Positions 5,901 to 32,532 of a DNA stretch of 64,000 bases are shown one piece after another; the first letter of the stretch is position 1; each line of letters starts with the position of its first letter. The position numbers were made by a program, and so were the translations under genes. The notes below the pieces were generated by a model. It was given only the letters and a program-made list of their open reading frames with translations. It had not been told where the DNA came from and searched no databases. The stretch is from an uncultured virus (IMG/VR IMGVR_UViG_3300008108_004630) (lineage: Duplodnaviria; Heunggongvirae; Uroviricota; Caudoviricetes). Location: IMG/VR virus record IMGVR_UViG_3300008108_004630; one strand, written 5' to 3'.

Positions 5901-7184
5901 TTGAGTGATACATTTTTAGGACGTACTAGAGCATGGGTGGCTGAAAAGCTAAATCCAGTTCAGCCCTCTATCGCTAGAGACGCTGGTTATCAAGTACCTG
6001 AAACAATAGTTGATTATGAAAGAGCTTATCGTGACGTAGAAGTAATACGTCGCGCTGTAGACATTATTATCAACGCTTGTGCAAATGTGCCATTGACCAT
6101 AGATGGTGGTGCAGCTCCTAAAAAACTAAATAAACTTTTAAATATAACTCCTAATCCTTTTGAAGATAGAAATAGAATATTTCGCAGATCTTTCCTAGAT
6201 TTTATGCTAGATGGTAATGCCTTTTTTTACTATGATGGAACATCTCTATATGCATTACCTGCTAACGAAGTAGCTATTCAGCCCGATGAAAAGACTTTCG
6301 TTAAAAATTATCAATATCAACTCAGAAGTGGTTCGGTTCTTTACGGTTTTGACAAGCCAAAAGTTAATAATATAAACTTTGACCCGGATGAGATTATCCA
6401 TGTAAAATCAGATAATGAAGATTCAATCTTTAGAGGTTCCTCTAGGTTAAAGCCTCTTAGAAGACTGATAGAGCTGTATTATGCTTTAACAGACTTCCAA
6501 AGACAGTTCTTCAAAAATAATGCAATACCTGGCATAGTTTTACAGACAGATTCTGTACTAAGTCAGAAGGTAAAAGAAAGACTACTAGAAGCCTGGAGAA
6601 ATACTTATTCTAACGTATTTCAGGGAGCTAGAAGTCCCGCCATCCTAGACGGTGGTTTGAAAATTGAAAAGTTTAGTAACATCAACTTCAGAGAACTAGA
6701 TTTCGAAGCCTCAGTTGATAGATTACAGCAAGATATGTGTAAGGCGTTAGGTGTACCTTATGTCTTACTAAAAAGCGGTAATAATGCTAACATAGAAGTA
6801 AACGAAAGACTTCTATATAATCACGTTGTTCTACCTATACTACATAGTTATTGTAGCGCCTTTCAGTTATACTTTGCGGGAGATGTAAAAATATATCCAG
6901 ATAAGTATGCGATCTCTGCTCTACAACCAGATAATAAAACTCAGGCTATGTATTATACTACTCTAGTAAATGGAGGTATCATATCTCCTAACGAAGCTAG
7001 AGAAGGTTTAAGACTATCAAGATCTACAGATCCAGAAATGGATAAGATAAGAGTGCCTCAAAATATAGTAGGTAGTGCTACAGACCCTTCTCAGGGCGGT
7101 AGACCAGTAGAAGAAGATAGAACAGAGCCTACAACAGTTACTCCCTTAGAGGATACAAACACACAAGGATCGACTAATGGATAA
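5901..7184 (+). CDS. Portal protein (HK97/T5-like)
   Basis: Motifs LDGNAF, EIIH, F.NNAIPG, ISPNEARE. Lies between terminase and protease. TTG start after GAGG. Confidence 0.93.
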   Translation: MSDTFLGRTRAWVAEKLNPVQPSIARDAGYQVPETIVDYERAYRDVEVIRRAVDIIINACANVPLTIDGGAAPKKLNKLLNITPNPFEDRNRIFRRSFLDFMLDGNAFFYYDGTSLYALPANEVAIQPDEKTFVKNYQYQLRSGSVLYGFDKPKVNNINFDPDEIIHVKSDNEDSIFRGSSRLKPLRRLIELYYALTDFQRQFFKNNAIPGIVLQTDSVLSQKVKERLLEAWRNTYSNVFQGARSPAILDGGLKIEKFSNINFRELDFEASVDRLQQDMCKALGVPYVLLKSGNNANIEVNERLLYNHVVLPILHSYCSAFQLYFAGDVKIYPDKYAISALQPDNKTQAMYYTTLVNGGIISPNEAREGLRLSRSTDPEMDKIRVPQNIVGSATDPSQGGRPVEEDRTEPTTVTPLEDTNTQGSTNG

Positions 7185-10038
7185 GAAATTTTACTTAAGT
7201 GCCTCATTTGAAGCGAATTCTGTACAGAAGAAAACAGGTAGCAAAAGTTTAAAAATTGCTGGCTATGCTAATACTGTAGATAAGGATCGCGCAGGTGATG
7301 TTGTACTTCCAGCAGCATGGGCTAAGGGAATAGACAGGTTTCGTAAGAATCCTGTTTTATTATATCAGCACAAACACGAAAATCCGATCGGCAGAGTAGA
7401 CAAAGTAACTGTTGATAAAAAAGGTATGTTCATTGAGGCTTCCGTTAGTGAAGCTGCTGAAAAATTACACGGGGTTCATAGTCTCATAAAAGACGGAGCC
7501 CTAAAAAGTTTTAGCGTAGGTTTTCTAGTAAAAGACGGAAAACTAGATAAGGCTAACGATACATTCGTTATATCTGATGTTGAACTACTAGAAATCAGCG
7601 TTGTAAGTGTTCCTGCTAACCAGGAAAGTCTTTTCTCTGTAAAGAAGAATTTTGAAAATCAAGAAGAGTATGAGACCTTTAAAAAGTCTTTTCCAGTTCA
7701 AGATGCAAAAGAAGAAGAAGAGATTAAAGCTTCTATGACTTCAGAAGAGAAAGCTATCTTAGAAAACGAAGGCCCATATAGAATTGGTATAACTACTCGT
7801 GATATGGGACACTATCATATTTTCCAAATGACAGATACAGACGATGGCGCTACTATTTTCGGCTCTGATTCTAGAGAGCACGTTCATCAGATAATTAATG
7901 GCCAAATTCAGGCTGCAGAAGGCCACACTCACAGAATTCTTACTACCGCGGTTCACGCAGAGCAAGAAGACGAAGAAGAGGAAAGCGTTCCTAATATCTT
8001 TTTAATGAGTGGAACAGAAGATACTGTGCAGAAAACAGTAGAGACAAAAGATTCTGAACAAGCCGAAGAAGATACTGTAGAAGAAACAGATCCTTACGAG
8101 CCAATTCCTTTTGTAAATCTATTAAGCGCAAGCACTGGAGCACTAGCTAATGGACAATTTGTTCAGCTAAAAGGTGAGAGGTATGTAATTACTAAGATTG
8201 CTACTTCGGATAGTCCAAGTTTCCAGTTTAAACAAGTAGATTTACAGGGACAGCATCTTGATAAAATTTTAAACATTGACGCTACTTCCCTAGAAGTGTT
8301 AAATATATGGGATGTAGGAACAAATTTTGATATTCAGCTAGCAGAGATCGAAGAACTCAGTCTAGATGAAGATACAAAACAGACTATCCTAACAAACTTT
8401 AAAAACTTAAATAACGTAACCGAAAAAGATCTATATGATCTCAAAACAGACAACCTAGTAAAAACTAACCCAACTCTACAAGAAAAACTAAACAAAACAA
8501 TAAACTTAGTATCTACTAAAAACTGGACTGATTCTGACTTTGTAGTCGCAAATAGAATTTGTCAAGTTATTCATAAATTGAAAGAAATTGAGCACAGTGA
8601 AGCATCTATGCGACAAATAATGCTAAAGCTTCACGGTCATTTAGAAGCTCAAACAAAGGAGAAATTAAATATGGCTACTCAGGCTGTTGACGAACCAGTT
8701 GTTATTGGTTCTACTGCTGAAACCAAGGCTGAGGCTACTGCCACAGCTAAGGTTGCCGAGCCTCGTGTTGCTGAGCTAGTTGAAAAGACTGGTGAAGCTA
8801 TCATCAAGGAAGCAGACGCAAAGGATAAGTACGGTGAGTATACTCCTCGTGAATCTGAAAAGGCTGCTGAACTTCAGGCTCAGATCAAGAAGTACAAAGA
8901 CGAAATTGCTGCACTACAGAACAGCAAGATGGTATTCCAGGAGCAGTCACGTGCTTCTCAGTTCACTCAGCGTGAACTTGCTAATGCCTACCTACTATCT
9001 AAGGCACTTCGCAAGGAATCTGTATTCGACACCAAGCTAGGTGCTCGTATGAAGGCAGTAACAACTGTAGATCAGTTCCTATCAAACTTTAGCTCAGATG
9101 TTTATACTGAACTACAGCAGGAACTAGTTGTTGCTAAAATGCTACGTCGTATGTCAGTAGACGCAAAGACTTTCAGAGTCCCAGTTGCTGACGAAGACAC
9201 CGATGGTGATGTAGCACAGTTCGCTAGCGGAACATATACCACAGGTATTGCCGACGCTACCAACGTGCCAACTTCAAACCAGAGCACAATCAAGTCTGTA
9301 GACTTCACACCTCACAAGTTCATGGCTACAACACACCTAGCTAAGGACGAAGAAGAAGATACAATTCTTCCTCTACTAGACTTCCTACGTACCGCTTCTA
9401 TGCGTCGTATGGGCCGTGCAATCGACAAGGCTCTACTACGCGGTGACGGTTCACTAAGCGGGTTCACTGCTTCACCAACTAATGCTATCACAGCAGGAAC
9501 TGGTTATGCTGCAGTATTCAAGGGAATTGCAACCCTAGCCAATGATATCTCTGGTCTCCGTGTTCAGACCGGCGGTAACTCAACCAAGGCTACCCCAGCT
9601 AACATTGCTAGCGCACGTGCCGTATTAGGTAAATACGGTCTACAGCTAGGAGATCACCTAGTATATCTAACAACTATTGAAGGATATAACGAGCTAGTAT
9701 CAAATTCAGACTTCCGCACAGTTGATAAGTTCGGTCCAAACGCAACCTATCTAACAGGTGCTCTTGGAGCTGTATACGGAATTCCAGTTATGATCACTGA
9801 GTTCCTAGACGTTGTAGGCGGTGCAGATCGTCACATCGGTCTACTAGTATACAAGCCAGGGTTCCTAGTAGCTGAGCGCCGTGCAATGGAGATTGAGAGC
9901 GAATACGATCCACGTCGTCAGCTAACTGCAATCTACATGAGCACACGCCTAGACATGAAGGCACTAACAACTAACTCAAGTGCTGCCCTTGATGCAACCA
10001 AGTATTCAATGGCATCAGTAATCCGTTCTGGAGCATAA
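7177..10038 (+). CDS. Prohead protease fused in frame to the major capsid protein
   Basis: N-terminal HK97-type protease (IAGYAN, DRAGD, LYQH, SFSVGF, LLEISVVSVPAN), a long insert, then an HK97-fold capsid domain. No intervening stop. Confidence 0.9.
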   Translation: MDKKFYLSASFEANSVQKKTGSKSLKIAGYANTVDKDRAGDVVLPAAWAKGIDRFRKNPVLLYQHKHENPIGRVDKVTVDKKGMFIEASVSEAAEKLHGVHSLIKDGALKSFSVGFLVKDGKLDKANDTFVISDVELLEISVVSVPANQESLFSVKKNFENQEEYETFKKSFPVQDAKEEEEIKASMTSEEKAILENEGPYRIGITTRDMGHYHIFQMTDTDDGATIFGSDSREHVHQIINGQIQAAEGHTHRILTTAVHAEQEDEEEESVPNIFLMSGTEDTVQKTVETKDSEQAEEDTVEETDPYEPIPFVNLLSASTGALANGQFVQLKGERYVITKIATSDSPSFQFKQVDLQGQHLDKILNIDATSLEVLNIWDVGTNFDIQLAEIEELSLDEDTKQTILTNFKNLNNVTEKDLYDLKTDNLVKTNPTLQEKLNKTINLVSTKNWTDSDFVVANRICQVIHKLKEIEHSEASMRQIMLKLHGHLEAQTKEKLNMATQAVDEPVVIGSTAETKAEATATAKVAEPRVAELVEKTGEAIIKEADAKDKYGEYTPRESEKAAELQAQIKKYKDEIAALQNSKMVFQEQSRASQFTQRELANAYLLSKALRKESVFDTKLGARMKAVTTVDQFLSNFSSDVYTELQQELVVAKMLRRMSVDAKTFRVPVADEDTDGDVAQFASGTYTTGIADATNVPTSNQSTIKSVDFTPHKFMATTHLAKDEEEDTILPLLDFLRTASMRRMGRAIDKALLRGDGSLSGFTASPTNAITAGTGYAAVFKGIATLANDISGLRVQTGGNSTKATPANIASARAVLGKYGLQLGDHLVYLTTIEGYNELVSNSDFRTVDKFGPNATYLTGALGAVYGIPVMITEFLDVVGGADRHIGLLVYKPGFLVAERRAMEIESEYDPRRQLTAIYMSTRLDMKALTTNSSAALDATKYSMASVIRSGA
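8671..10038 (+). CDS. Major capsid protein from an internal start (455 aa)
   Basis: AAGGAG at 8656-8661, 9 nt before an in-frame ATG at 8671. Codon usage switches abruptly to a high-expression pattern here. N-terminal coiled-coil scaffold (delta) domain. Confidence 0.85.
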   Translation: MATQAVDEPVVIGSTAETKAEATATAKVAEPRVAELVEKTGEAIIKEADAKDKYGEYTPRESEKAAELQAQIKKYKDEIAALQNSKMVFQEQSRASQFTQRELANAYLLSKALRKESVFDTKLGARMKAVTTVDQFLSNFSSDVYTELQQELVVAKMLRRMSVDAKTFRVPVADEDTDGDVAQFASGTYTTGIADATNVPTSNQSTIKSVDFTPHKFMATTHLAKDEEEDTILPLLDFLRTASMRRMGRAIDKALLRGDGSLSGFTASPTNAITAGTGYAAVFKGIATLANDISGLRVQTGGNSTKATPANIASARAVLGKYGLQLGDHLVYLTTIEGYNELVSNSDFRTVDKFGPNATYLTGALGAVYGIPVMITEFLDVVGGADRHIGLLVYKPGFLVAERRAMEIESEYDPRRQLTAIYMSTRLDMKALTTNSSAALDATKYSMASVIRSGA

Positions 10039-21616: not shown

Positions 21617-22463
21617 TTTTAATATAGGCCGCTATGTCGGCACTCCGGCCGAAGTCGCTATAGTAGTTGACGGAATAGTACAGGCCTATAATAGCTATAC
21701 TCTATCTAATAATAAAGGAACGGTTAATTTTATAGTAGCTCCAGGTGCTACGAGTCTAGAGATAAAAACTTTAGCAGTGCCAGATTTTCTGAAAATAACT
21801 AAAGATAGTCTTCAGATCTCTCCTATATTTTATAGTAATAGCTCAGTTCTTAGTTATAATGGAAATAATTATCAGATAAATGGGTCTAGAACTGCATGGG
21901 CTATCACAGGAACTCCTGCTGAGGCAAATCAGATGATGGTATCTGTAGACGGTGTCGTTCAAAATCCATCAGCATATACTTTTCCAAGTTCTACCTTAGG
22001 TAGTTATGGTATAGATATATCTCCGGCACTAGCTTCAAATGTTGCTAATTTAGATATCCGAGTTTTTTCCGGCACCTCTACGCAAGTAGAAAGATTTACT
22101 ACTATGTCTGATAGAAAACCAGATCGTGGCTTCTCTACTGATAAACAATTTGATACTTTAACTTTCGAGAGTCAGGCAGGATATGAGACTAGACGTCTGC
22201 GCAGTCGTCGTCCTCGTCGTAATTATAATCTTACCTATACAAACATATCTGGAGTTCATAAAATAGCTATAGATAATTTCTATAATGCTAGAAGTGGTGA
22301 TTATGAATCTTTTGTATTCGATCTTAGCCATATTAATGATAGCGGCTCTGTAACTGTTCGTTTTGACGGTCCTGTTCAGACTACTCATGTGGCTAGTTCT
22401 GGATCACAACCTTCTCAAAATTTCTATACTGTTAGCATGAAGCTAAAAGAGGTATTTAGTTAA
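21576..22463 (+). CDS. Distal tail protein (Dit/gpM-like) with N-terminal repeat domains; start uncertain
   Basis: C-terminal PDRGFS...FESQAGYETR. Two internal repeats, VVDGIVQ and SVDGVVQ. Confidence 0.7.
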   Translation: MQLDNYTSTGLTTSFNIGRYVGTPAEVAIVVDGIVQAYNSYTLSNNKGTVNFIVAPGATSLEIKTLAVPDFLKITKDSLQISPIFYSNSSVLSYNGNNYQINGSRTAWAITGTPAEANQMMVSVDGVVQNPSAYTFPSSTLGSYGIDISPALASNVANLDIRVFSGTSTQVERFTTMSDRKPDRGFSTDKQFDTLTFESQAGYETRRLRSRRPRRNYNLTYTNISGVHKIAIDNFYNARSGDYESFVFDLSHINDSGSVTVRFDGPVQTTHVASSGSQPSQNFYTVSMKLKEVFS

Positions 22464-24001
22464 TGACTTCTAGAAACTACGACTACATATTAAAAGTAAA
22501 TACAACTACAGGGTTTAAGGCCGGTAATACTATTATAGGCGTTACTTCTCTAACAGAGGCAATCATAGCCAATGTAGATGTAGCTACTAGTAATATTAAG
22601 GTAAAACTATCTAATACGATTGCTGAATTTCACGTTGGTGAACAGATATTCAGTAACTACATAGTTAAGACTACTAGTTCTAATACTCATGACATAGGCA
22701 ACACTACTTCTACTTACACTCAACAAACTACAGGAACTGCTACGGTTAGTGCTATTAACGTAAGCAAGTTTATTAAAGAGAAGAATAGTTTTGAGCAAAA
22801 GCCGCTGGTTAGACTATATACTATATATTATCCTGGAGAGTGGTATCCTACTAATGAATATGGTAATCCAAGTGGAGACGGAGCAGGACTTGTCTGGCCT
22901 TATAGTTTTCCATTTAAATTCGCTGAAATTCGCGGAGATTATATCTCAGACATAAACTATAGAGTTCATATGGGTGGTCAGGAGTTTATACCATATCCTA
23001 TTAACAGCGGTGTCTTAAGCACAGATTCGTCTGGTAAAATAAATGACCTATCTATTACAGTATCTAACTTTGATAATCTTATAGGATCTCTTGTAGAAAA
23101 CCCATTTCTTGTAGGTAATAATAGTACAGGATCTACCACTGCTTATGTTAACGGAGAATTAGTAAACGGCATAGATCCTAGAACAGTTCCTTCACATGGT
23201 AGTTACGATGCTAGCGTAAGGGAAGCCAGAGGACTTAATGCAGCATTTGATTATGATTCCACTTTATCTACTGGCGGAACTTGGACTAAACTAAAATTAG
23301 ATTCTAGAGATCTCCTTGGTGCTGTTGTAGAGATAAAAACTACTTTTGCCAATTTTCTCGATGTGTGGCCTGAATACAGCACCGTATCAACTGAATCTTA
23401 TAATGGATCTTCAAGTAATTTAATTAATATGGTAACTACTTTACCTTATAGAGTAGGAGATATTGTTACCAATAGTGTGACAGGTTCTAATAAATTTGAA
23501 ATAGTAGCAATTAATCACCCATATCTAGTATGTAATACAGATGTAGGCGCTAATTTTATACCAGGATCTAACGTATTTATAGTAAATCAAGAACGTGATT
23601 CTGAAAACTATGTGCTAGATACTTTTAAAATTGATAGTCTTAGTGAATTAAATGAGCAAACTGCAACATTTTCATTAACCAGTTGGTTACAGTATTTTAA
23701 ATTACAATTACCTAGACGTAAATTCTATAAGAATGTCTGCCCTTGGGTGTATAAAGGAAGTGAGTGTCAGTATCCTACTGGCGGAACAGGTCTCATACCT
23801 GGATCTAACACTTTAATTGTATCTAATGGAACCTTATTAGCAGACGGAGCTACTGCTAATGGATTTTTTAATATTCGTAATGAAACTGTATACACTTTAT
23901 CAGAAGACGTATGCGCTAAAAACTTACAGGCTTGTGAGTTACGAGGTAATCAATTTCATTTTGGAGGATTTCCTGGCACAGGAGGGACTTTACCAAGATA
24001 A
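22463..24001 (+). CDS. Tail tip hub protein, lambda gpL-like (Fe-S cysteine motif)
   Basis: LPRRK...CPWVYKGSECQY...DVCAKNLQACELR...FGGFPG. Confidence 0.85.
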   Translation: MTSRNYDYILKVNTTTGFKAGNTIIGVTSLTEAIIANVDVATSNIKVKLSNTIAEFHVGEQIFSNYIVKTTSSNTHDIGNTTSTYTQQTTGTATVSAINVSKFIKEKNSFEQKPLVRLYTIYYPGEWYPTNEYGNPSGDGAGLVWPYSFPFKFAEIRGDYISDINYRVHMGGQEFIPYPINSGVLSTDSSGKINDLSITVSNFDNLIGSLVENPFLVGNNSTGSTTAYVNGELVNGIDPRTVPSHGSYDASVREARGLNAAFDYDSTLSTGGTWTKLKLDSRDLLGAVVEIKTTFANFLDVWPEYSTVSTESYNGSSSNLINMVTTLPYRVGDIVTNSVTGSNKFEIVAINHPYLVCNTDVGANFIPGSNVFIVNQERDSENYVLDTFKIDSLSELNEQTATFSLTSWLQYFKLQLPRRKFYKNVCPWVYKGSECQYPTGGTGLIPGSNTLIVSNGTLLADGATANGFFNIRNETVYTLSEDVCAKNLQACELRGNQFHFGGFPGTGGTLPR

Positions 24002-24387
24002 TGGATTGGACTACATACTTATACCTGCCCTATGAAAGTTATAACTGTTTGACTCTTATAGAGAAGATATGTGAAGATCAAGGATATAGTATTCAAGGTA
24101 TAGAAGAGATGGCTCAGTATCATTTCAAACATAACTGGGGCGCTTCAGTATCCTACAAAGATATAGATAGATTTATTACACTTAATCAAGCAAAATTAGT
24201 AAATCTTTCAGACATACAAGAATTTGATATTATTCTTTTTAAATTGCGAGATATTAGACCACAACATTTCGGTGTTTATATTGGATTAAATAGATTTATT
24301 CATCATAGAAAATACATAAAAATTGATGAACTTAATCAAGAATATAGAGATAAGATAAAGTATATAATTAGATGGAAAGATATTTAA
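24001..24387 (+). CDS. NlpC/P60-like protein 1 (gpK C-terminal-like)
   Basis: YNCLTLI...HFGVY...FIHH. Confidence 0.75.
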   Translation: MDWTTYLYLPYESYNCLTLIEKICEDQGYSIQGIEEMAQYHFKHNWGASVSYKDIDRFITLNQAKLVNLSDIQEFDIILFKLRDIRPQHFGVYIGLNRFIHHRKYIKIDELNQEYRDKIKYIIRWKDI

Positions 24388-24794
24388 AATACGAAGGATT
24401 TCCCTATAAACATTTAGGAGATAATCCAGATATAGGTATAGATTGTTTTAATCTCGTTCGATGGGTATATAAACACGAATTAGGTATAGAGATACCTCTA
24501 TCTACTGCAGATTTTTGTAGTAATCCAGAAGAAAAATGGTATATAGAAACTAATAACCATTTGTTTGGTAAGCCTAGTGCTGAGAGAGCTGGGTTTAGGT
24601 CTGTTAAAACTCCGAAAGAATACGATATGATTATTATGTCTATTGGAACTACCAATATTGCTAATCACTGCGCTCTCTATCTTGGTAAAGATAAAATTCT
24701 ACAGACTATGATAGGTAATAACAGTTGGATAGCTCCTTACGGTAGATATTATAAACAATATACGGTGGATATTTATAGATGGCATCAGTTTTAG
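24372..24794 (+). CDS. NlpC/P60-like protein 2
   Basis: GFPY..GIDCFNLV...NHCALY. Confidence 0.8.
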   Translation: MERYLKYEGFPYKHLGDNPDIGIDCFNLVRWVYKHELGIEIPLSTADFCSNPEEKWYIETNNHLFGKPSAERAGFRSVKTPKEYDMIIMSIGTTNIANHCALYLGKDKILQTMIGNNSWIAPYGRYYKQYTVDIYRWHQF

Positions 24795-25150
24795 AAAAAT
24801 TAAAAGATCAAATGACTACTCATTTTATTAATGAGTATCCTAGGGAGGCATGCGGTATAATAACTACTGACTGGGAGTATGTGCCTTGTAAAAATATCAG
24901 CGGATCTCCAAAAACTAATTTTATCTTAGATCCTGTTAGTTTATTACAATATGAAGATACTACGTGGGGCATAGTTCATTCTCATCCAGGAAGTGATAAT
25001 CCTATACCTAGCGAAGAAGATATGGCCAGCACAGTTTTCGACTGCTACAAGTTTATAGTAGGGTTCAATAACCGTTTCTATATTTATTGGTATGATAAAA
25101 AACTAAAATCTCTTATGTATGAAGAGTTAGAAGAGCGACATCTTGTCTAA
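24779..25150 (+). CDS. JAB/MPN+ metalloprotease (gpK N-terminal-like)
   Basis: Intact JAMM motif: PREACG...VHSHP...PSEED. Confidence 0.9.
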   Translation: MASVLEKLKDQMTTHFINEYPREACGIITTDWEYVPCKNISGSPKTNFILDPVSLLQYEDTTWGIVHSHPGSDNPIPSEEDMASTVFDCYKFIVGFNNRFYIYWYDKKLKSLMYEELEERHLV

Positions 25151-25922
25151 TGTAACCGTATCATTTCATAAAAGTCTTTTACCTTACACTAATGGTATCA
25201 AACAATTAGAAATGACGACAGATGTCATCTATTTCTTGTTTTTAAACTCTCTGAATCTATTTCCCGAGTTAGAACGTCTTGTAAGACATGCACGATTTAG
25301 TAAGCTTGAAGAGATAGCTATAATCCATAAAGGTAAGTGTCTATCTCCCGAAGAGTTTTTATTCTTAGCTAAAGATGGAGAGACTTATCATATAGTTCCT
25401 ATTTTTCGTGGTAGTGGACTTGAAGCTATGGCTATAGGTTTTGCCATAGGTTTTGCCACTAGCTTTACTATATCTTTAGTGCAGGGAGCAAGTTTCGGTC
25501 AAGCTTTACTAAGAGGTTTAATAGGCGGAGCTGCAGGCGCCTTAGGGGCTGGAGCCTTTCAATCTTTTGGGACGGTTGCTTTAGAGGGAGCATCTTTAGC
25601 TACCGGTGGATTTGCTGCCTCAGGTATAACAGCCCCAACAGTAGGATCTTATCTAGCCGCAGGACTTGCAAGCGCAGTGGGTAGTATAGCTCAAAATGTA
25701 TTAGTTCCTATTAAACCTAAAATTAAAAGTATGGATTCTGCTGATTCTGGAGATAGGCGTAATAATGATGCTTTTGATAGCCAAATAAATACTGTGCACC
25801 CAAATCAATCTATACCACTTAATTATGGTATGTTAAGAGTAGCAGGGCAAATTATTAGTGCAGATGTAGATACTATATCTCACGATAAAGGTGCTATAAT
25901 ATCGGTGGCAAGCTATGTATAA
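25143..25922 (+). CDS. Tail assembly protein I-like, copy 1 (ubiquitin-like N-domain, Gly/Ala-rich hydrophobic middle)
   Basis: N-domain ends HIVPIFRGSG. C-terminal IPLNYGMLRVAGQIIS motif typical of gpI. Confidence 0.75.
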   Translation: MSNVTVSFHKSLLPYTNGIKQLEMTTDVIYFLFLNSLNLFPELERLVRHARFSKLEEIAIIHKGKCLSPEEFLFLAKDGETYHIVPIFRGSGLEAMAIGFAIGFATSFTISLVQGASFGQALLRGLIGGAAGALGAGAFQSFGTVALEGASLATGGFAASGITAPTVGSYLAAGLASAVGSIAQNVLVPIKPKIKSMDSADSGDRRNNDAFDSQINTVHPNQSIPLNYGMLRVAGQIISADVDTISHDKGAIISVASYV

Positions 25923-26469
25923 TATACGCTTTCATAAAATATTATTACCATCCAATTCACAAACCCAAATATCAGCTGATATTCATAAAGTATCGGATCT
26001 TTTGTCTTATATTAAGAATCTTTATCCAAGTCTGGACAAATCTAGAATATTATTATTAACTACGGAATTTAAACCATTTCCAGATGCCTGGTTAACTAGA
26101 GACGAGATACCAGATGATCAAACGGGGTGTTATATAGTTCCTTTAATATGTGGAAACTTAGAGACAATAACAGCTTCTGTAGTAGGACAGGCTGTCGTAA
26201 GAGCAGTAGTAGGAACAGTTATTAGCTTTGCTCTAGGCGCAGTTATACAAGCTATTATGCCTAAGCCAAAAAGATCTGATACAGGTATAACAGATCAGGA
26301 TAGAAGAAATAATGATGCTTTCGATGGTATAATAAATACAGTTGACAGCAGTAATTCTATACCTTTAAACTATGGTATGTTGAGAGTTGGCGGCCAGATT
26401 ATTAGTGCGGATGTAAATACTATTAATCACGAAAAAGGTGATGTAATTAATGTATCAAGCTATGTATAA
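25915..26469 (+). CDS. Tail assembly protein I-like, copy 2
   Basis: YIVPLICGN. C-terminus nearly identical to copy 1 (DRRNNDAFD...IPLNYGMLRV.GQIISADV). Confidence 0.75.
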   Translation: MYNIRFHKILLPSNSQTQISADIHKVSDLLSYIKNLYPSLDKSRILLLTTEFKPFPDAWLTRDEIPDDQTGCYIVPLICGNLETITASVVGQAVVRAVVGTVISFALGAVIQAIMPKPKRSDTGITDQDRRNNDAFDGIINTVDSSNSIPLNYGMLRVGGQIISADVNTINHEKGDVINVSSYV

Positions 26470-29413
26470 ATCTTACTATATTATAAACGGTAGATATGTG
26501 CCCTTTATCTCTGGAGGTAAAGGAGGATGCTTCGCGGCAGGAACCCTTATAGATATTCCTGGCGGTAATAAACCTATTGAAGAAATACGAGTAGATGATA
26601 TAGTAATTAGCTTTGATCATTATGGTAAACTATCAAAGAATAAAGTCATTCAAGTATTCGAGCACGACGAAGATGAGCTAGTAGATATTTCTTTTTGGAA
26701 TGGTAGTTTTAAAATAACACCTAATCACTGGGTTTTAAATGAGAATATGGCTTTTACAGCTATAGGTAATTTACAAATAGATGATGTCTTAGTTGATAGA
26801 TTAGGATATTATAGACCTATCTTAGAAATTAAAAATATAGGTAAAAGTAAAGTATATAATTTTACTGTAGAAAATGATCATACCTATATAGCCAACGGCA
26901 TTCGCGTGCATAATAAGGGTGGAGGAAAGGGAGCTTCTCCAGCTCCTGCTGTGGAGGCGCCTAATTCTCTATTTTCTACTGATATTTTCTTTGGCACTTT
27001 AGCTTTAGGAGAGGGACCAGTATATCGTATTAATCCTAATGGACCTCAAGATATAGAATTTAACGAATCTACTATAGACGACTTAATAAAAATAGATGGT
27101 GATGGAACTGTAAATACTGAACTATTCTATACGGCACAGTCAACAGGGACAGTTACAGGTAAAGGATTGCCAGCTAGTTTAGGTAGATTTGCTGGTAAAA
27201 CTGTAACGCCTCAAGGACTAAACTCTCCAGTAAGTCTTAAAAAGGGTAATTTAGAGAGTATACCTAAAGTAGTTGTTACACAAAACACGAGTCAAAGCGC
27301 CTGGGATAGCTTAGAATTTAATTTCTTAATCTCTGGGCTACAAAGTATGGATAACAACGGTAATGTCAGTGGTTACTCTGTAGGTGTTAAAATAACTATT
27401 TATGACTATACAGGAGCTAATATACTTAAAGACGAAAACGGGGATGATTTAATAATAGAAAAAACTATATCAGGAAAAACTAATACTAATTTTAAATTTC
27501 AAATCTCAGCTATTATACCTGATAATGTTAAGAGTGGAAATGGATATCAGTTTAAAATTGAAAAAATTACTGATGATTCAGATAGCTCTAAAATACAAGA
27601 TACTATACAGTTTGTTGGATGGGATGAAATAAAAAACTCTAAACAAGTCTATCCTAGAACAGCACTGCTAGGATTTGCTTTAAAATCTACCGCTGAATAT
27701 TCAGGCTCTATTCCTACTGTTACTTCGCTTGTAAAAGGCCTTATAATAAAGGTTCCTAGTAATTATAATCAACCTGTATTAGCTACAGGAGAAATTGATT
27801 GGAGAGAGTTAGAAACTCCTACTTCTGGCGCTCTTTCTTACACTACTTGTGGATATAGCTTAGAAAATCCAGGATCTTCTACTCAGCTTACAGAAGCTAA
27901 TCCCATAATTTATAAAGGATCCTGGGATGGTACTTTCGTCTATAAATGGACTCAGAATCCTATATGGGTTCTATATGATTTATTAACTAACCAGTCTTAC
28001 GGATTAGGAATACCAGAAGGTAACATAGATAAGTTTAAATTCTACAAGATAGCTCAATATTGTGATGCAGTTGACCCTAAGACAGGTAGATTTACAGGAG
28101 TCACTGGATATGCAGACAGCACCTTTAGAAGTAAACCTAGAGGTAAATTTACCACAGTAAGAGAAAATCAAATTGGAGTTAGTTTAGGAACTCAGATCAT
28201 AGAGCGCAGATTTACTTGTAATATATCTCTTAACAGCCAAAAACAAGTTATGGATATTATTAATCAGATTACTGCTATATTTAGAGGTATCTTGTTCTAC
28301 TCTGGCGGAAAGATCTCATTAAATGTAGATCTTCCTGATGAAATACCCGTAGCTGTATATAATGAGACAAATATCTTAAAAAACTCTTTACTAATTAGTG
28401 GTATCAGAGAGTCAGAAATTTTAACAGGCGTAGAGGTATCTTATCTTGAGCCTAGAAACCATTCTCGTAGAGAGTTAGTAAGAATAGACGACCCTACCGC
28501 TATATCTGAGCTTAATTCTATAGAAAATGTAAAATCTATAGATTTACCTGGTTGTGATAGACGAAGTCAGGCAATGAGGTTTGGGCAGTATTTATTAGCA
28601 TCTAGCAAATATGTCAGAAGAAAGGCTACTTTTAAAACGCCTGCTGAAGGTATGACCTCTACCATTGGAGATGTTATAGCAGTATCTCAAAGAATAGGAG
28701 GTATAGCTTGGGGTTACGGAGGAAGAGTATTTGCTAACGCTACTACAGCTACTGGAAATGTAATACTAGAACACTTTACTAGTCCCGCTATTACAGGTTC
28801 TGTCATAACTGGGAACACTAAACCCATAGCTTTGAGAGTAATTAATAGAGAGACAGAGAGAGTAGAGTTGTATATATGTAATAATACTTATAGTTCTGTA
28901 TCTAGTTCTAATGTTAATGCAGGCATAGACATTATTGAACTTACAGTTCAAAAAGTATACAAACCACAAACTAGAACATTTGCTTCTTTTAGTAATTTTA
29001 CTTCTAATAATGTTCCCGTAAAAGGTGATATATGGTCTTTAGGAGAGGTAGATCCTTCTAATTACTATACCAACACTAATGATAAACTATTTAAGATAGT
29101 AAACGTAGAAAGAGATACTGATGAGTTAGTTACTATAACTGCTACAGAATATGTATCTAACGTATATACAGATTCTGATAGCATTATTAGTTACGTTCCT
29201 GTTAAATATACCGATACAGCTAATCCTCTAATACCACCTCCTGCACCTATATTAAAAGTAATACCTAGACCTATAAAGAATTTAGATGGCTCAGTACAGT
29301 ATGACTTAGAGATTTATGCATCTACTGATACTACCGGATACCCAATTTCTATTGCTACAGAAATGGAATTAGCTAAACCCTCTGAAATAGTGCTGGCACA
29401 AGGCATATCGTAA
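26450..29413 (+). CDS. Central tail fibre / tip attachment protein J-like, N-terminal part, containing a Hint domain (true start may be 26462)
   Basis: gpJ motifs LGEGPV, YPRTAL, WDGTF..KWTQNP.W..YD, YCD, RFTCN, GCDRRSQAMR. Confidence 0.9.
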   Translation: MYQAMYKSYYIINGRYVPFISGGKGGCFAAGTLIDIPGGNKPIEEIRVDDIVISFDHYGKLSKNKVIQVFEHDEDELVDISFWNGSFKITPNHWVLNENMAFTAIGNLQIDDVLVDRLGYYRPILEIKNIGKSKVYNFTVENDHTYIANGIRVHNKGGGKGASPAPAVEAPNSLFSTDIFFGTLALGEGPVYRINPNGPQDIEFNESTIDDLIKIDGDGTVNTELFYTAQSTGTVTGKGLPASLGRFAGKTVTPQGLNSPVSLKKGNLESIPKVVVTQNTSQSAWDSLEFNFLISGLQSMDNNGNVSGYSVGVKITIYDYTGANILKDENGDDLIIEKTISGKTNTNFKFQISAIIPDNVKSGNGYQFKIEKITDDSDSSKIQDTIQFVGWDEIKNSKQVYPRTALLGFALKSTAEYSGSIPTVTSLVKGLIIKVPSNYNQPVLATGEIDWRELETPTSGALSYTTCGYSLENPGSSTQLTEANPIIYKGSWDGTFVYKWTQNPIWVLYDLLTNQSYGLGIPEGNIDKFKFYKIAQYCDAVDPKTGRFTGVTGYADSTFRSKPRGKFTTVRENQIGVSLGTQIIERRFTCNISLNSQKQVMDIINQITAIFRGILFYSGGKISLNVDLPDEIPVAVYNETNILKNSLLISGIRESEILTGVEVSYLEPRNHSRRELVRIDDPTAISELNSIENVKSIDLPGCDRRSQAMRFGQYLLASSKYVRRKATFKTPAEGMTSTIGDVIAVSQRIGGIAWGYGGRVFANATTATGNVILEHFTSPAITGSVITGNTKPIALRVINRETERVELYICNNTYSSVSSSNVNAGIDIIELTVQKVYKPQTRTFASFSNFTSNNVPVKGDIWSLGEVDPSNYYTNTNDKLFKIVNVERDTDELVTITATEYVSNVYTDSDSIISYVPVKYTDTANPLIPPPAPILKVIPRPIKNLDGSVQYDLEIYASTDTTGYPISIATEMELAKPSEIVLAQGIS
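26528..26914 (+). other. Hint (intein-like/BIL-type) autoprocessing domain, 129 aa
   Basis: Block A CFAAGT, block B TPNH, block F VYNFTV, block G VHN. The +1 residue is Lys. No endonuclease domain. Confidence 0.9.
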
Positions 29414-32400
29414 TGGCATATAAAACAATAACCGTAGAAAATACTTCTAATATATCTAATGGTATCGGAGTAGCTCTGGTAGGCAAAAATGGGTTTAATA
29501 CCCTTTTAGGATCTATACCTTTGTTATGCACATCAGTAAATAGAGTAGATGTTACTGGAGATAAAACTATAAAAAATGGTAACTTAGAATTTACTGTTAC
29601 TGGATTAGCTAGTGCAATAGACTTAAACTTTAATAAAAATGTATTATTAGTTAATGATGACCCGGCTGTTTTTGGTAACCTAAAGGGTATTGATTATGTA
29701 GGAATACCTATTAATGAGAAAACAGATACAGGTGCAGATATAGGGCATGTAGGATATAATCCTATAGTAACTCAGATTAGTATGCCTATAGAGAGTTTTA
29801 ACTTAAGTAATAATACTTTAAAGGTTAATAATAGTGTAAGCGCTAACCACCCAGAGACTTTCTTATTAGATAGTTTACCTGAGCCTCCTTTCTACCTAAA
29901 AATAAGTCAACTTTTAGATCAGACTAAATTTAATAATAATAGCGTGTATCTAGAAGGATATTCACATATATTTACAAAGACTTTTAATATTGAGGCTATA
30001 GCTGTTGCAGGATCTTCTACTGTTGATATAAACATAGTACCAAGATATAAGACTGCAATTTCAGTATATATTGATAATCAAGAACAAGCTCAGGGTGTTT
30101 TTACGTGGGATAGTAAATCTAATATTACTGTCCAGACTGGAACTGGAAAAGTTCTTACCGTAAGAACAAACCACTATACTGTCCCTATCATAGAACCAGG
30201 AGATAATATTTCTTTATTTTCTGGTAATATCTATGCTGTTTCTGAGACTAGTTACAATCCTTCAAGCCCTAGTTATAACTCCTATTTAACTACTAATTGT
30301 ATTTACAGAGTTAAATTTGCTACATCGCTTACTGCTAATATATCTGGAGTTACGGGCGTAAATATATCTAATGATATTCAAGGCACTGTAGGAAATTTAA
30401 ATGCTACAGCTAATACATTCACTTTGGACTATGACAACACAATATATCCAGGAGTTTACGAATTAGGATCTTATAAAGTATATAACGTAAGTTTAAGTAA
30501 AACTTTTGAATCCTTAGACATAAGTAAAGAAGGAAAGATAAAAAATATAGCCCCAGGAAGTTATGTTGTAAGAGCTAGAAACAAGAATAGTTTTAATAGA
30601 AAAAGCGCATATTCTACTAAACAGGTAAATATTGATACTTTACCGATAGGAAAAGTAACAGATTTACAAATATCTGAATCTCTTTACAGAGATAAACAAG
30701 TTGGTATTGCTGTTAGAGCTACTATAAGTTTTACTCCTATAGTTAATCAATCTGTTACAGACTATGAAATATCTTATAAAATAGCAGATAATAGTTCTGG
30801 AGCTGATCTGCTTACTTATACTACTGTAAAAGTGTCTGCTAGCGGTATAGCAGAAGACGGAAAATTATATTTTAAGATTGATAATATAGAAAGAGGTGCC
30901 TCTGCTGGTGCTTATCGTTTTTATGCTAGAGTTACACCTCTTAATAATGATATCAGAGGTATTACTACAGAAACCTCAGCAGATATAGTGGGTAAAACTG
31001 CTAAACCAGACGGAGTAACCCGGTTTTCAGCCAGTCAACTTGGAGATCAAATTTTATTCTCTTGGACAGTTCCTAGAGATCAAAACGGTGATCCTCTAGA
31101 AATAGACTTATATCAATTTGAGATAAAACAATTAACAGGAACTTATAGTTCTGTCACAGAATCTAACTGGGAATCCTCAACAAGTATAGGATCTGCTTTT
31201 GCTAACGTAAGTTTCTTAAATGCGCCTGTTAGAGAGTATGGTACTTTTACTTACTTATTAAGAACTAGAGATACAACAGGTAATCAGTGTGAAGCATCTG
31301 ATATAGCTGTATACACTATAACTACTATACGACCAGCTAGCCTATTTACTTTTAGAGCGTTCAGCGAAGATAATCCAGGTGCAAATGACTATATATCTGG
31401 ATCTACTAATAATAATTATTTTGAATATTATTATCCAAGTTTTGCTAATTCTGTTTATGGAGGAATAGCAGGAGCAGGTAGAAGTATAGTTGATAACTCT
31501 AACGGTACTTCTATCGGATTTACGGTTGCTGCAGGCGTTACAGATCTTAATGCGTCTGCTAATGCGGTATATTATACTCAAATAAGAGATTTAGGACAAC
31601 TTATTACTGGCAGGTTAGTATCTAGTGTAAACGTTATTCAAAGTGTTACTTCAACATACAATGATTTTAAAGAAAATGTTCTCGTTGGGGTATCTGACGC
31701 CTTACAAAGTCCTGGATTTTTTCAAGATAGCGCTCTTACAACGTTTTTAGATATAGCAACGTATGATACAGATAATAAAACATTGACAAGCGGAGGTCCT
31801 AGTGGTAATGTTTATGCTATATGGAACTATGGACAGTTTGTTGATGATGTATCAAACGCTAATAGTTATGCCCTTATACTTAGTGTGACAAATTCTTCTT
31901 TAGGCATAATTCAATTTAGTAATACTTATTTTGCAAATGGAGTGTCTACAGGTAGCAATATATTAGCTAATTTAAGTGGAAGTGCTACTTCTTATGCATT
32001 AGTTAATTTAACACAGTATAATGACAGATTAACATCTACTTTTGAGGGGCCAAGTAATTCTATATCTTACAACGTAGACTTAAGATATTCAACTGCTAGT
32101 AATGTTTATTACTCTGGTAATAATCAAGTTAATACTAATGCTTTCGTAGGATTTGCAACCAACGATGGTTGGGCTCCTTTAACTGAATCTGATATTACTT
32201 TTAGACATTTCCAACTTAGAGTTTCTATAGTAAATTCCAAACCCGGACAAGTGTCTACTATATTGGATAAGCTTAGATATGCAGTTAACTTAACTAGAAA
32301 AGTATTTTCTACTAGTAATACGATAAATTCTAGTAATACTACTATAGATTACGGTGCCTCTGGATTTACTGTAGTCCCTACTATAACAGTTAGTCAAACA

Positions 32401-32532
32401 TCTGGCACAGACCCAGTAGTGCCAATTATTACAGGTAAAACTAATAATCAATGCGGCATATCTCTATATTATTCTAGCAATGGAGTATCTGTTACAGGTA
32501 TTACCGTAGATATCAAAGCAGATGGAGCATAA
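29413..32532 (+). CDS. Central tail fibre, C-terminal part (fibronectin III-like domains)
   Basis: YVVRARNKN, YEISYK, YLLRTRDTTGN. Coupled to the J-like gene by TAATG. Confidence 0.7.
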   Translation: MAYKTITVENTSNISNGIGVALVGKNGFNTLLGSIPLLCTSVNRVDVTGDKTIKNGNLEFTVTGLASAIDLNFNKNVLLVNDDPAVFGNLKGIDYVGIPINEKTDTGADIGHVGYNPIVTQISMPIESFNLSNNTLKVNNSVSANHPETFLLDSLPEPPFYLKISQLLDQTKFNNNSVYLEGYSHIFTKTFNIEAIAVAGSSTVDINIVPRYKTAISVYIDNQEQAQGVFTWDSKSNITVQTGTGKVLTVRTNHYTVPIIEPGDNISLFSGNIYAVSETSYNPSSPSYNSYLTTNCIYRVKFATSLTANISGVTGVNISNDIQGTVGNLNATANTFTLDYDNTIYPGVYELGSYKVYNVSLSKTFESLDISKEGKIKNIAPGSYVVRARNKNSFNRKSAYSTKQVNIDTLPIGKVTDLQISESLYRDKQVGIAVRATISFTPIVNQSVTDYEISYKIADNSSGADLLTYTTVKVSASGIAEDGKLYFKIDNIERGASAGAYRFYARVTPLNNDIRGITTETSADIVGKTAKPDGVTRFSASQLGDQILFSWTVPRDQNGDPLEIDLYQFEIKQLTGTYSSVTESNWESSTSIGSAFANVSFLNAPVREYGTFTYLLRTRDTTGNQCEASDIAVYTITTIRPASLFTFRAFSEDNPGANDYISGSTNNNYFEYYYPSFANSVYGGIAGAGRSIVDNSNGTSIGFTVAAGVTDLNASANAVYYTQIRDLGQLITGRLVSSVNVIQSVTSTYNDFKENVLVGVSDALQSPGFFQDSALTTFLDIATYDTDNKTLTSGGPSGNVYAIWNYGQFVDDVSNANSYALILSVTNSSLGIIQFSNTYFANGVSTGSNILANLSGSATSYALVNLTQYNDRLTSTFEGPSNSISYNVDLRYSTASNVYYSGNNQVNTNAFVGFATNDGWAPLTESDITFRHFQLRVSIVNSKPGQVSTILDKLRYAVNLTRKVFSTSNTINSSNTTIDYGASGFTVVPTITVSQTSGTDPVVPIITGKTNNQCGISLYYSSNGVSVTGITVDIKADGA

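What the first reader, a model, noticed from the sequence alone, without database searches (positions are those of the whole stretch)
26450..26960. Gly-Gly|Hint|Lys autoprocessing domain at the N-terminus of the central tail fibre
Seen: ...VPFISGGKGG-[CFAAGT...TPNH...VYNFTV...VHN]-KGGGKGASPAPAVEAPNSL. All Hint catalytic residues are present (Cys1, TxxH, His-Asn), but the +1 residue is Lys rather than Cys/Ser/Thr. There is no homing endonuclease, and the KGG motif flanks both sides. Known: such BIL-type domains cleave rather than splice canonically, and the downstream sequence resembles the lambda gpJ N-terminus (GKGSSKGHTPREA). Inference: Asn cyclisation frees a mature J. The Cys1 thioester activates a short peptide ending in Gly-Gly, like a charged ubiquitin tail, which could be ligated to a Lys without E1/E2. 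Alternatively the shed GGKGG peptide is a disposable decoy for host Ubl conjugation. With the adjacent Ubl and JAB genes, this is the best candidate here for an undescribed protein-processing or counter-defence system.
Basis: partly seen in the sequence, partly recalled or inferred. Interest (0 to 1): 0.78.

Follow-up and report, generated by a model that had tools for sequence, protein, structure and literature searches.

The report
Self-removing insert in phage tail fibre
An uncultured phage's central tail-fibre protein carries a small intein-like domain that most likely cuts itself out during tail assembly; relatives lose it cleanly and often lack the lysine beside it, so it looks like a dispensable passenger, though its chemistry resembles a known enzyme-free ubiquitin-style ligation and is easy to test.

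Summary
ORF 26450-29413 is a lambda-type gpJ with a 129-residue BIL/PT-HINT domain (Cys27 to Asn155, +1 Lys156, no endonuclease). It follows a P-x-I-x-G leader that copies the ends of the two neighbouring ubiquitin-like gpI proteins. A model places leader Gly22 in the active site of the adjacent JAB protease (0.95, best control 0.02). The leader also exists in Hint-free J. Gly-Gly precedes Cys1 in only 28 of 50 homologues. The +1 residue is Lys in 34 and Gly in 13 of 47 viral J-Hints, and Lys is common in non-phage members of the subfamily. Of 98 family members, 69 carry the Hint, with at least 7 clean gains or losses, and empty alleles read like the spliced or cleaved product. Best reading: a dispensable self-removing insert that cleaves and partly splices through an amine, while JAB trims the leader. 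Enzyme-free ligation to lysine is already described for Tetrahymena BIL2, a close solved homologue, and remains possible here (about 20%). A counter-defence decoy has no support. This scan noted the same cassette before on other DNA.

The parts
26450..29413 (+). gpJ-like central tail fibre, N-terminal part (987 aa; the second ATG at 26462 may be the real start)
   Evidence: phrog_31 E 1.6e-106, Pfam Phage-tail_3 and FNIII-A_GpJ; Foldseek to lambda and T1 gpJ; close homologues begin at the second Met
26462..26515 (+). Leader ending in P-F-I-S-G (aa 18-22), copy of the gpI ubiquitin-like C-terminal strand; predicted JAB cut after Gly22
   Evidence: P18, I20, G22 nearly invariant in Hint-bearing and Hint-free J; 50 of 50 Hint rows keep it; JAB complex model 0.95 vs best control 0.02
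26516..26527 (+). N-flank GKGG (aa 23-26); Gly26 is the -1 residue
   Evidence: -1 is Gly in 49 of 50 rows, di-Gly in 28 of 50
26528..26914 (+). Hint domain, A-type BIL / PT-HINT (aa 27-155): Cys27, His72, Thr90-His93, Asn137 at block F4, His154-Asn155
   Evidence: residue conservation in 127 distinct J-Hints
26915..26932 (+). C-flank KGGGKG (aa 156-161); Lys156 is the +1 residue and the N-terminus left by Asn cyclisation
   Evidence: KG in 51 of 51 Hint rows of the extein search; Lys 34, Gly 13 of 47 viral-locus Hints
24779..25150 (+). Stand-alone JAB/JAMM metalloprotease (gpK N-terminal equivalent), E23, H67, H69, S78, D81 intact
   Evidence: Prok-JAB; invariant in 24 of 24 aligned relatives
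24001..24794 (+). Two NlpC/P60 genes (24001-24387, 24372-24794), gpK C-terminal equivalents
   Evidence: Pfam NLPC_P60
25143..25922 (+). gpI-like protein 1; predicted ubiquitin-like domain ends IVPIFRG
   Evidence: phrog_32; motif table; the Ubl fold was inferred from the lambda gpI literature, not modelled here
25915..26469 (+). gpI-like protein 2; predicted ubiquitin-like domain ends IVPLICG
   Evidence: phrog_32; motif table
22463..24001 (+). gpL-like hub protein
   Evidence: Pfam Phage_tail_L, TIGR01600
29413..32532 (+). Second tail-tip ORF (1039 aa) directly after J, probably the rest of a split J
   Evidence: no family hit; same position in related loci; the split-J reading is inference

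Best explanation
The Hint is a dispensable, self-removing BIL-type insert that sits in the Gly/Lys linker just after the JAB-recognised leader of J. Proposed steps, all inferred (none shown at the bench): (1) Cys27 forms a thioester with Gly26; (2) His154-Asn155 cyclises and frees the amino end of Lys156; (3) with no Cys/Ser/Thr at +1, part of the precursor simply falls apart and part is re-joined when that freed amine attacks the Gly thioester, restoring leader-J as in Hint-free phages; (4) the phage JAB cuts re-joined molecules after Gly22, as it is proposed to do for gpI. Both routes give J a short Gly/Lys-rich N-terminus like that of natural empty alleles and of lambda J. The insert is tolerated because either route works, and it is gained, swapped and lost by recombination at the Gly/Lys repeats. 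It adds no new function beyond perhaps delaying J maturation.
For: Empty alleles match both products: P0059, P0102 and P0112 read G-S-K-G-G-K-G-G-G, the pattern that joining Gly26 to Lys156 gives, and P0100 has KGGGK directly after the leader Gly. 69 of 98 family rows carry the Hint, with 8 changes by parsimony and at least 7 forced by branches of support 0.9 or more. P0044 is 72% identical over the extein and lacks it. The +1 residue is Lys 34, Gly 13, C/S/T 0 of 47; the only nucleophile common to Lys and Gly is the alpha-amine. The leader is kept in 50 of 50 Hint rows and block B Thr/His in 126 and 127 of 127, which pure C-terminal shedding would not require. JAB-leader model: score 0.95, best of 3 controls 0.02; mark reached by 116 of 157 solved complexes and 2 of 215 mismatched pairs; runs agree in at least 81% of contacts; partner pLDDT at least 68; Gly22 touches JAB H67, E80, D81. 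Hint dN/dS is like the extein's (0.11 vs 0.08, 0.20 vs 0.20 for the window lineage against L019 and L021). Lambda J is modelled from residue 1 in the virion (S1 Table row of PMC10721106), so a 129-aa cap probably has to go.
Against: No biochemistry. Reviews say BIL domains give predominantly cleaved products (PMC7664689 passages) and one says A-type BILs cannot ligate their flanks (PMC7765530 passage), although titles in their reference lists report splicing without a +1 nucleophile (Dassa 2004, Aranko 2013; titles only). The complex pass may reflect likeness to solved JAMM-ubiquitin-tail complexes, and its controls were unrelated proteins, not a scrambled leader. In classical J with a second JAB-type site after the Hint (22 of 35 domains) the first leader is still kept (30 of 35), which this model explains only by recent insertion. 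Long retention in 69 of 98 rows without an endonuclease may point to a benefit I have not identified. Lys+1 is constant in 51 of 51 rows of the main clade while several Hint-free linkers lack a nearby Lys.
Confidence: 0.5

Rival explanations
1. Cleavage only: Asn cyclisation alone releases J starting at Lys156; leader plus Hint is shed. The leader is kept because docking on JAB recruits or times the J precursor, or because the JAB cut triggers the Hint.
For: BILs are mostly cleavers; Asn rather than Asp at block F4 in 116 of 127, as in the C. thermocellum BIL; P0100 shows that a KGGGK start is a natural mature end; the first leader persists even where a second site follows the Hint.
Against: It needs an extra reason for invariant Cys1 and block B Thr/His (the Cys1 count is partly circular because full domains were picked by Cys...Asn ends) and for the exact match of empty alleles to the spliced junction.
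Confidence: 0.22
2. BIL2-like isopeptide ligation: the Gly26 thioester is taken by a lysine epsilon-amine, either Lys156 in cis (a branched J end) or a lysine of another tail-tip protein such as the GGGK ends of mature gpI, with JAB trimming or reversing the tag.
For: Tetrahymena BIL2 does this without E1/E2 (PMC8616854 section 2.4). BIL2 is the second-best solved sequence match (E 2.2e-7), its RGG-Cys flank aligns with KGG-Cys, and it is the best-ranked Hint in Foldseek. His72 is invariant in 127 of 127 J-Hints and by my count aligns with BIL2's zinc ligand His48. Lys is the commonest +1 in non-J members (175 of 240 domains; 70 of 126 counting one per protein).
Against: Gly, Ala or Thr replace Lys at +1 in many J-Hints. 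BIL2's second zinc ligand His125 aligns with Asn137 here. His72 does not track with Lys+1 (present in 55 of 181 non-J Lys+1 domains). Di-Gly is in 28 of 50 only. There is no folded Ubl before the Hint. Repeated clean loss shows the product is not needed for a tail.
Confidence: 0.2
3. Counter-defence decoy: the shed Gly/Lys peptide or the Hint cap absorbs or blocks host Ubl conjugation (Bil system) aimed at the central tail fibre.
For: Bil conjugates its Ubl to the central tail fibre (bioRxiv 2023.09.04.556158, listing and passages). Patchy distribution and Hint/extein swaps (L027/L029: Hint 98%, extein 71%) are compatible with conflict.
Against: The passages I saw name no target lysine and suggest a structural motif. 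The same Lys-rich motif stays on mature J. Purifying selection, not diversification, in diverged pairs. The same subfamily sits in tandem in non-phage Tim44-domain proteins. The host is unknown.
Confidence: 0.05
4. The Hint is inactive or slow and stays on J as a structural domain of the virion.
For: It folds as a separate confident domain in the model.
Against: All catalytic positions are conserved; lambda J's N-terminus is an ordered part of the tip; clean losses.
Confidence: 0.03

Closest known systems
A-type bacterial intein-like (BIL) / PT-HINT domains (C. thermocellum BIL, PDB 2lwy; Pfam PF07591)
   Same: Mini Hint fold, His-Asn end, no +1 Cys/Ser/Thr, Asn at block F4, no endonuclease; best PDB match (profile E 9.4e-21).
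   Different: Sits at one fixed site in a conserved, essential virion protein rather than in hypervariable regions of non-conserved proteins (PMC7765530 passage); has an extra invariant His46 where 2lwy has Arg.
Tetrahymena BUBL1 BIL2 (PDB 6y75, 6tmm)
   Same: Gly-ended flank before Cys1 (RGG vs KGG), aligned His48/His46, ubiquitin-type context; published E1/E2-free ligation to lysine (PMC8616854, section read).
   Different: BIL2 is flanked by folded Ubl domains; here the N-flank is a 22-26 aa leader. Its second zinc ligand is Asn here. Lys+1 and di-Gly are not conserved in the phage family.
Lambda/T1 tail-tip module L-K-I-J (Iyer, Burroughs and Aravind 2006, PMC1779556)
   Same: JAB plus NlpC/P60, Ubl-bearing gpI ending in Gly (lambda IVPRVAG) and gpJ in the same order; JAB was proposed there to cut gpI after the Ubl's last Gly.
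   Different: Two NlpC and two gpI, JAB stand-alone, J carries its own copy of the JAB site and a Hint; lambda J has neither.
Class 1 mini-inteins (gp41-1, DnaB, RecA)
   Same: Cys1, block B Thr-x-x-His, His-Asn; precise insertion with empty alleles.
   Different: No +1 side-chain nucleophile in 47 of 47 family loci; Asn not Asp at F4; host is a structural tail protein.
Bil anti-phage Ubl conjugation system (Hör et al., bioRxiv 2023.09.04.556158)
   Same: Concerns Ubl chemistry on the central tail fibre.
   Different: Bil is host-encoded and needs E1 and E2; no link to this locus was found.

Membership tests
A-type BIL / PT-HINT | Hint fold of about 130-140 aa without endonuclease | tested here: met
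   129 aa; PT-HINT 29.7 bits over 27.7; TMt 0.86 to 2lwy
A-type BIL / PT-HINT | Cys1, block B Thr-x-x-His, C-terminal His-Asn | tested here: met
A-type BIL / PT-HINT | No conserved Cys/Ser/Thr at +1 | tested here: met
   Lys 34, Gly 13 of 47; Thr in 3 of 35 classical-J domains
A-type BIL / PT-HINT | Located in hypervariable regions of non-conserved proteins | tested here: not met
   fixed site in conserved gpJ; this is the variant feature
A-type BIL / PT-HINT | Autocleavage or splicing activity | not testable with these tools
   needs expression
Canonical class 1 intein | Cys/Ser/Thr at +1 | tested here: not met
   Lys156; 0 of 47 in the family's viral loci
Canonical class 1 intein | Precise insertion with empty alleles | tested here: met
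   P0059, P0102, P0112, P0100; L050 versus L046
BUBL/BIL2-type ubiquitin ligation | Folded Ubl ending in RGG directly before Cys1 | tested here: not met
   26-aa leader only; di-Gly in 28 of 50
BUBL/BIL2-type ubiquitin ligation | Zinc site His48 plus His125 | tested here: inconclusive
   His72 aligns with His48, Asn137 with His125 (my residue count)
BUBL/BIL2-type ubiquitin ligation | Isopeptide product on a lysine | not testable with these tools
   needs mass spectrometry
Lambda-type L-K-I-J tail-tip module | JAB and NlpC/P60 next to gpI and gpJ | tested here: met
Lambda-type L-K-I-J tail-tip module | Intact JAMM motif and Gly at the end of the gpI Ubl | tested here: met
   the beta-grasp fold of these gpI was not modelled
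Anti-Bil counter-defence | Protection against host Ubl conjugation | not testable with these tools
   host unknown

The most novel reading that the evidence does not exclude
A phage tail-tip protein carries out ATP-free, ubiquitin-style isopeptide ligation: the Hint charges a JAB-recognised Gly-ended peptide as a thioester and hands it to Lys156 or to a lysine of gpI or the tape measure, with the phage JAB as eraser. This would be a viral write-and-erase pair for tail assembly and would make Lys+1 Hints a broad natural class of isopeptide-forming splicing domains.
Probability: 0.2. Interest if true: 0.82.

Novelty: new variant of a known kind. Interest (0 to 1): 0.52.

Why it matters
The role of gpK (JAB) in lambda-type tail assembly is an old open point (PMC12617516 passage: required, location unknown). 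This family gives a compact test: one small protease, three predicted substrates sharing a P-x-[IF]-x-G end, and a modelled complex. It also supplies a natural series of one Hint subfamily with Lys, Gly, Ala or Thr at +1, with matching empty alleles, which lets one ask directly how BIL domains splice without a side-chain nucleophile and whether Lys+1 gives linear or isopeptide joins. If the isopeptide route is real it would extend BIL2 chemistry to phages and offer a 129-residue ligation tool. If not, it is a widespread, harmless passenger of tail proteins.

Tried and rejected
The window's own assembly is not held; the nearest virus record G001 is a 30 kb fragment with one Hint, the same one. 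A genome scan with the Hint profile gave 1 locus from 2 pattern matches and no J, so no host or prophage was found; the pattern was narrow, so this is weak. Cultured phages hold no J with this Hint: 2 records matched the 255-aa query and 13 the Hint alone, under helicase, terminase, hypothetical or unannotated genes. The first tree (quick method, 3 changes) used a Hint-biased sample and was replaced by the extein-only sample. In one search my pattern mislabelled four Ser-Asn Hints (L166, L177, L190, L191) as empty, corrected; P0105 and P0108 were dropped from that tree. dN/dS in near-identical pairs (up to 0.76 on very few changes) was set aside as noise. His72 was tested as a marker of Lys+1 chemistry and does not track with it. 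The jumbo-phage review held nothing on tail Hints. Ten literature searches showed no paper describing a Hint on gpJ; most subscription journals are not in the library, and Chiarini 2021 itself is not held. Rejected: sporadic canonical intein; Lys-dependent mechanism as universal; Ubl and JAB neighbours as a new system.
Full report
Observation. The window is a siphophage with terminase, portal, protease-capsid, tail tube, tape measure and a replication module (PHROG hits); its T5-like character is my inference from that gene set. The tail-tip genes run gpM-like, gpL, NlpC, NlpC, JAB, gpI, gpI, gpJ. Residues 27-155 are a Hint domain (PT-HINT 29.7 bits, cut-off 27.7; confident separate fold; matches to BIL2 and C. 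thermocellum BIL). It is 129 aa, has no endonuclease, and is followed by Lys156.

Family. A search with J residues 8-260 gave 93 proteins among 3335 candidates. Because that query favours Hint carriers, I searched again with the extein alone (aa 165-640): 871 hits, best 120 listed. Of these 120, 51 carry the Hint, all within the best 71 rows and all with Lys-Gly at +1/+2. Viral contigs added a lineage the protein search missed: of 47 distinct J-Hint sequences, +1 is Lys in 34, Gly in 13 and Cys/Ser/Thr in none (six of the 47 are near-copies of the window). On an extein tree the 11 Gly rows form one group (support 1.0) nested among Lys rows. After correcting four mislabelled rows, 69 of 98 rows carry the Hint, with 8 changes by parsimony and at least 7 forced by well-supported branches (P0105 and P0108 dropped). 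Hint and extein distances correlate (Spearman 0.44, 0 of 999 permutations as high; 18 of 30 supported Hint splits recur), so inheritance is partly vertical, with clear swaps (L027/L029 and L027/L196). dN/dS in diverged pairs is mostly 0.1-0.2 for both parts.

Empty alleles. Hint-free relatives keep the leader and read G-S-K-G-G-K-G-G-G (P0059, P0102, P0112) or have KGGGK directly after the leader Gly (P0100); others have no Lys near the site (P0097, P0099, P0116, P0122). So the KGG on both sides is a repeated linker motif of J, with the Hint inserted inside it. Splicing restores the first type of allele; C-terminal cleavage gives the mature end of the second type.

Leader and JAB. Pro18, Ile20 and Gly22 are nearly invariant across Hint-bearing and Hint-free J and kept in 50 of 50 Hint rows with an intact start. 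The same motif ends the predicted Ubl of gpI in most related loci, often followed by GGGK, and lambda gpI has IVPRVAG. The JAMM residues are invariant in 24 of 24 aligned JABs. A model of JAB plus zinc plus J residues 5-40 scored 0.95 against a best control of 0.02; the mark was reached by 116 of 157 solved complexes and 2 of 215 mismatched pairs; runs agreed in at least 81% of contacts, partner pLDDT at least 68; leader residues 19-22 pair with JAB 47-50 and Gly22 touches H67, E80 and D81. This supports binding but does not show it, the calibration holds only roughly for this job, and it may reflect solved JAMM-ubiquitin complexes. Iyer et al. 2006 proposed the JAB cut for gpI (passages).

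Wider subfamily. A Hint profile matched 42,917 representatives at E 0.001; the best 150 were examined. Thirty-six have one N-terminal Hint; among the 35 full-length ones +1 is Gly 29, Lys 3, Ala 3. I scanned 24 of these 36, plus three double-Hint proteins and two tandem-Hint proteins: the 27 all carry Phage-tail_3 and the two carry Tim44. So the Hint sits at the J N-terminus in many lineages under 50% identical. In classical J, a leader-type pattern precedes 30 of 35 domains and a second one follows 22 of 35 (the 35 include second copies of tandem pairs). In one such lineage only 1 of 76 loci has the Hint (L046), and L050, 93% identical over residues 172-1348, lacks it; an intact JAB lies upstream in 31 of 31 of those loci with 5 kb of flank. 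Outside J, Lys is the commonest +1 (175 of 240 domains, inflated by tandem repeats; 70 of 126 per protein, a set that includes some mis-sorted J) and Gly the commonest -1 (147 of 240). Lys+1 is therefore a habit of this Hint subfamily, not a phage counter-defence signature.

Mechanism. Across 127 distinct J-Hints: Cys1 127, His46 127, Thr64 126, His67 127, Asn111 116, His128 118, Asn129 127 (the first and last are partly fixed by my filter). Conservation of the N-terminal machinery and of the leader argues that some precursor is re-joined; the BIL literature argues that much is only cleaved. The simplest account that fits Lys, Gly, Ala and Thr at +1 is attack by the freed alpha-amine after Asn cyclisation (mechanism recalled from Dassa 2004 and Aranko 2013; I saw only their titles in reference lists). 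JAB then trims re-joined molecules. Lambda J is modelled from residue 1 (S1 Table row), which suggests the cap must go. I put this at 0.5, cleavage only at 0.22, isopeptide ligation at 0.2, decoy at 0.05, retention at 0.03.

It has a precedent: Tetrahymena BIL2 conjugates ubl4 to lysines of ubl5 and Ras without ATP (section 2.4 of PMC8616854 read whole; passages of PMC9200820). BIL2's RGG-Cys aligns with KGG-Cys here and its zinc ligand His48 aligns, by my count, with the invariant His72; its other ligand His125 aligns with Asn137. Against it: di-Gly in 28 of 50, Gly+1 lineages, His72 present in only 55 of 181 non-J Lys+1 domains, and repeated loss. For the decoy idea, the Bil preprint passages name the central tail fibre as target but no lysine, and the host here is unknown.

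Novelty. BIL domains, BIL2 chemistry and the K-I-J module are each known. Ten searches showed no paper on a Hint at the gpJ N-terminus; this library lacks most subscription journals. Papers seen: passages of PMC7824862, PMC7664689, PMC7765530, PMC1779556, PMC10721106 (plus supplement rows), PMC12617516, PMC9200820 and bioRxiv 2023.09.04.556158; one whole section of PMC8616854; bioRxiv supplements were not seen and may name Bil target lysines. Earlier notes of this scan describe the same leader-Hint-JAB cassette in other genomes; I had reached the leader reading before opening them, and they are not independent support. New here: the Gly+1 lineage, the count of gains and losses, the two-site and tandem forms, the Lys+1 subfamily survey, the BIL2 link and the complex model. 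Verdict: new variant of a known kind, interest 0.52.

Noticed in passing
window 21589/21590: The window lacks 232 nt present in 12 of 12 near-identical loci checked; the gap removes the tape-measure C-terminus and the start of the gpM-like gene. Assembly error or a defective copy.
   Followed up: partly
L025:2801-4060, L029:2914-4090, L035:2815-4042: A 390-420 aa ORF with a CxxxCxxC motif, radical-SAM-like by eye, lies between gpL and NlpC in these three loci of the Gly+1 lineage; not scanned against families.
   Followed up: no
P0050, P0054, P0055, P0195, P0202; L041:6001-6387: The same Hint subfamily with Phe or Gly at +1 sits before a GGGK...GPGTETSDSIKARLSDG-type stretch that resembles tape-measure C-termini (resemblance recalled).
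   Followed up: no
P0162, P0172, P0053 and similar: Bacterial-type proteins with 2-5 tandem Hints joined by KG/KGG linkers, upstream of a Tim44-like domain in the two scanned.
   Followed up: partly
P0164, P0174, P0179: gpJ proteins with two tandem Hints at the N-terminus, separated by a Gly-run with Lys.
   Followed up: partly
L046:5043-5432 versus L050: Recent-looking insertion in a classical J: the IRGAGGGGG leader is duplicated on both sides of the Hint, +1 Thr.
   Followed up: partly
window 29413-32532: A 1039-aa ORF with no family hit overlaps the J stop by one base and follows J in related loci; probably the C-terminal part of a split J.
   Followed up: no
P0129: A J homologue with about 300 extra N-terminal residues that begin like a gpI, suggesting an I-J fusion.
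   Followed up: no
window 7177-10038: Head maturation protease and major capsid protein are one 953-aa ORF.
   Followed up: no
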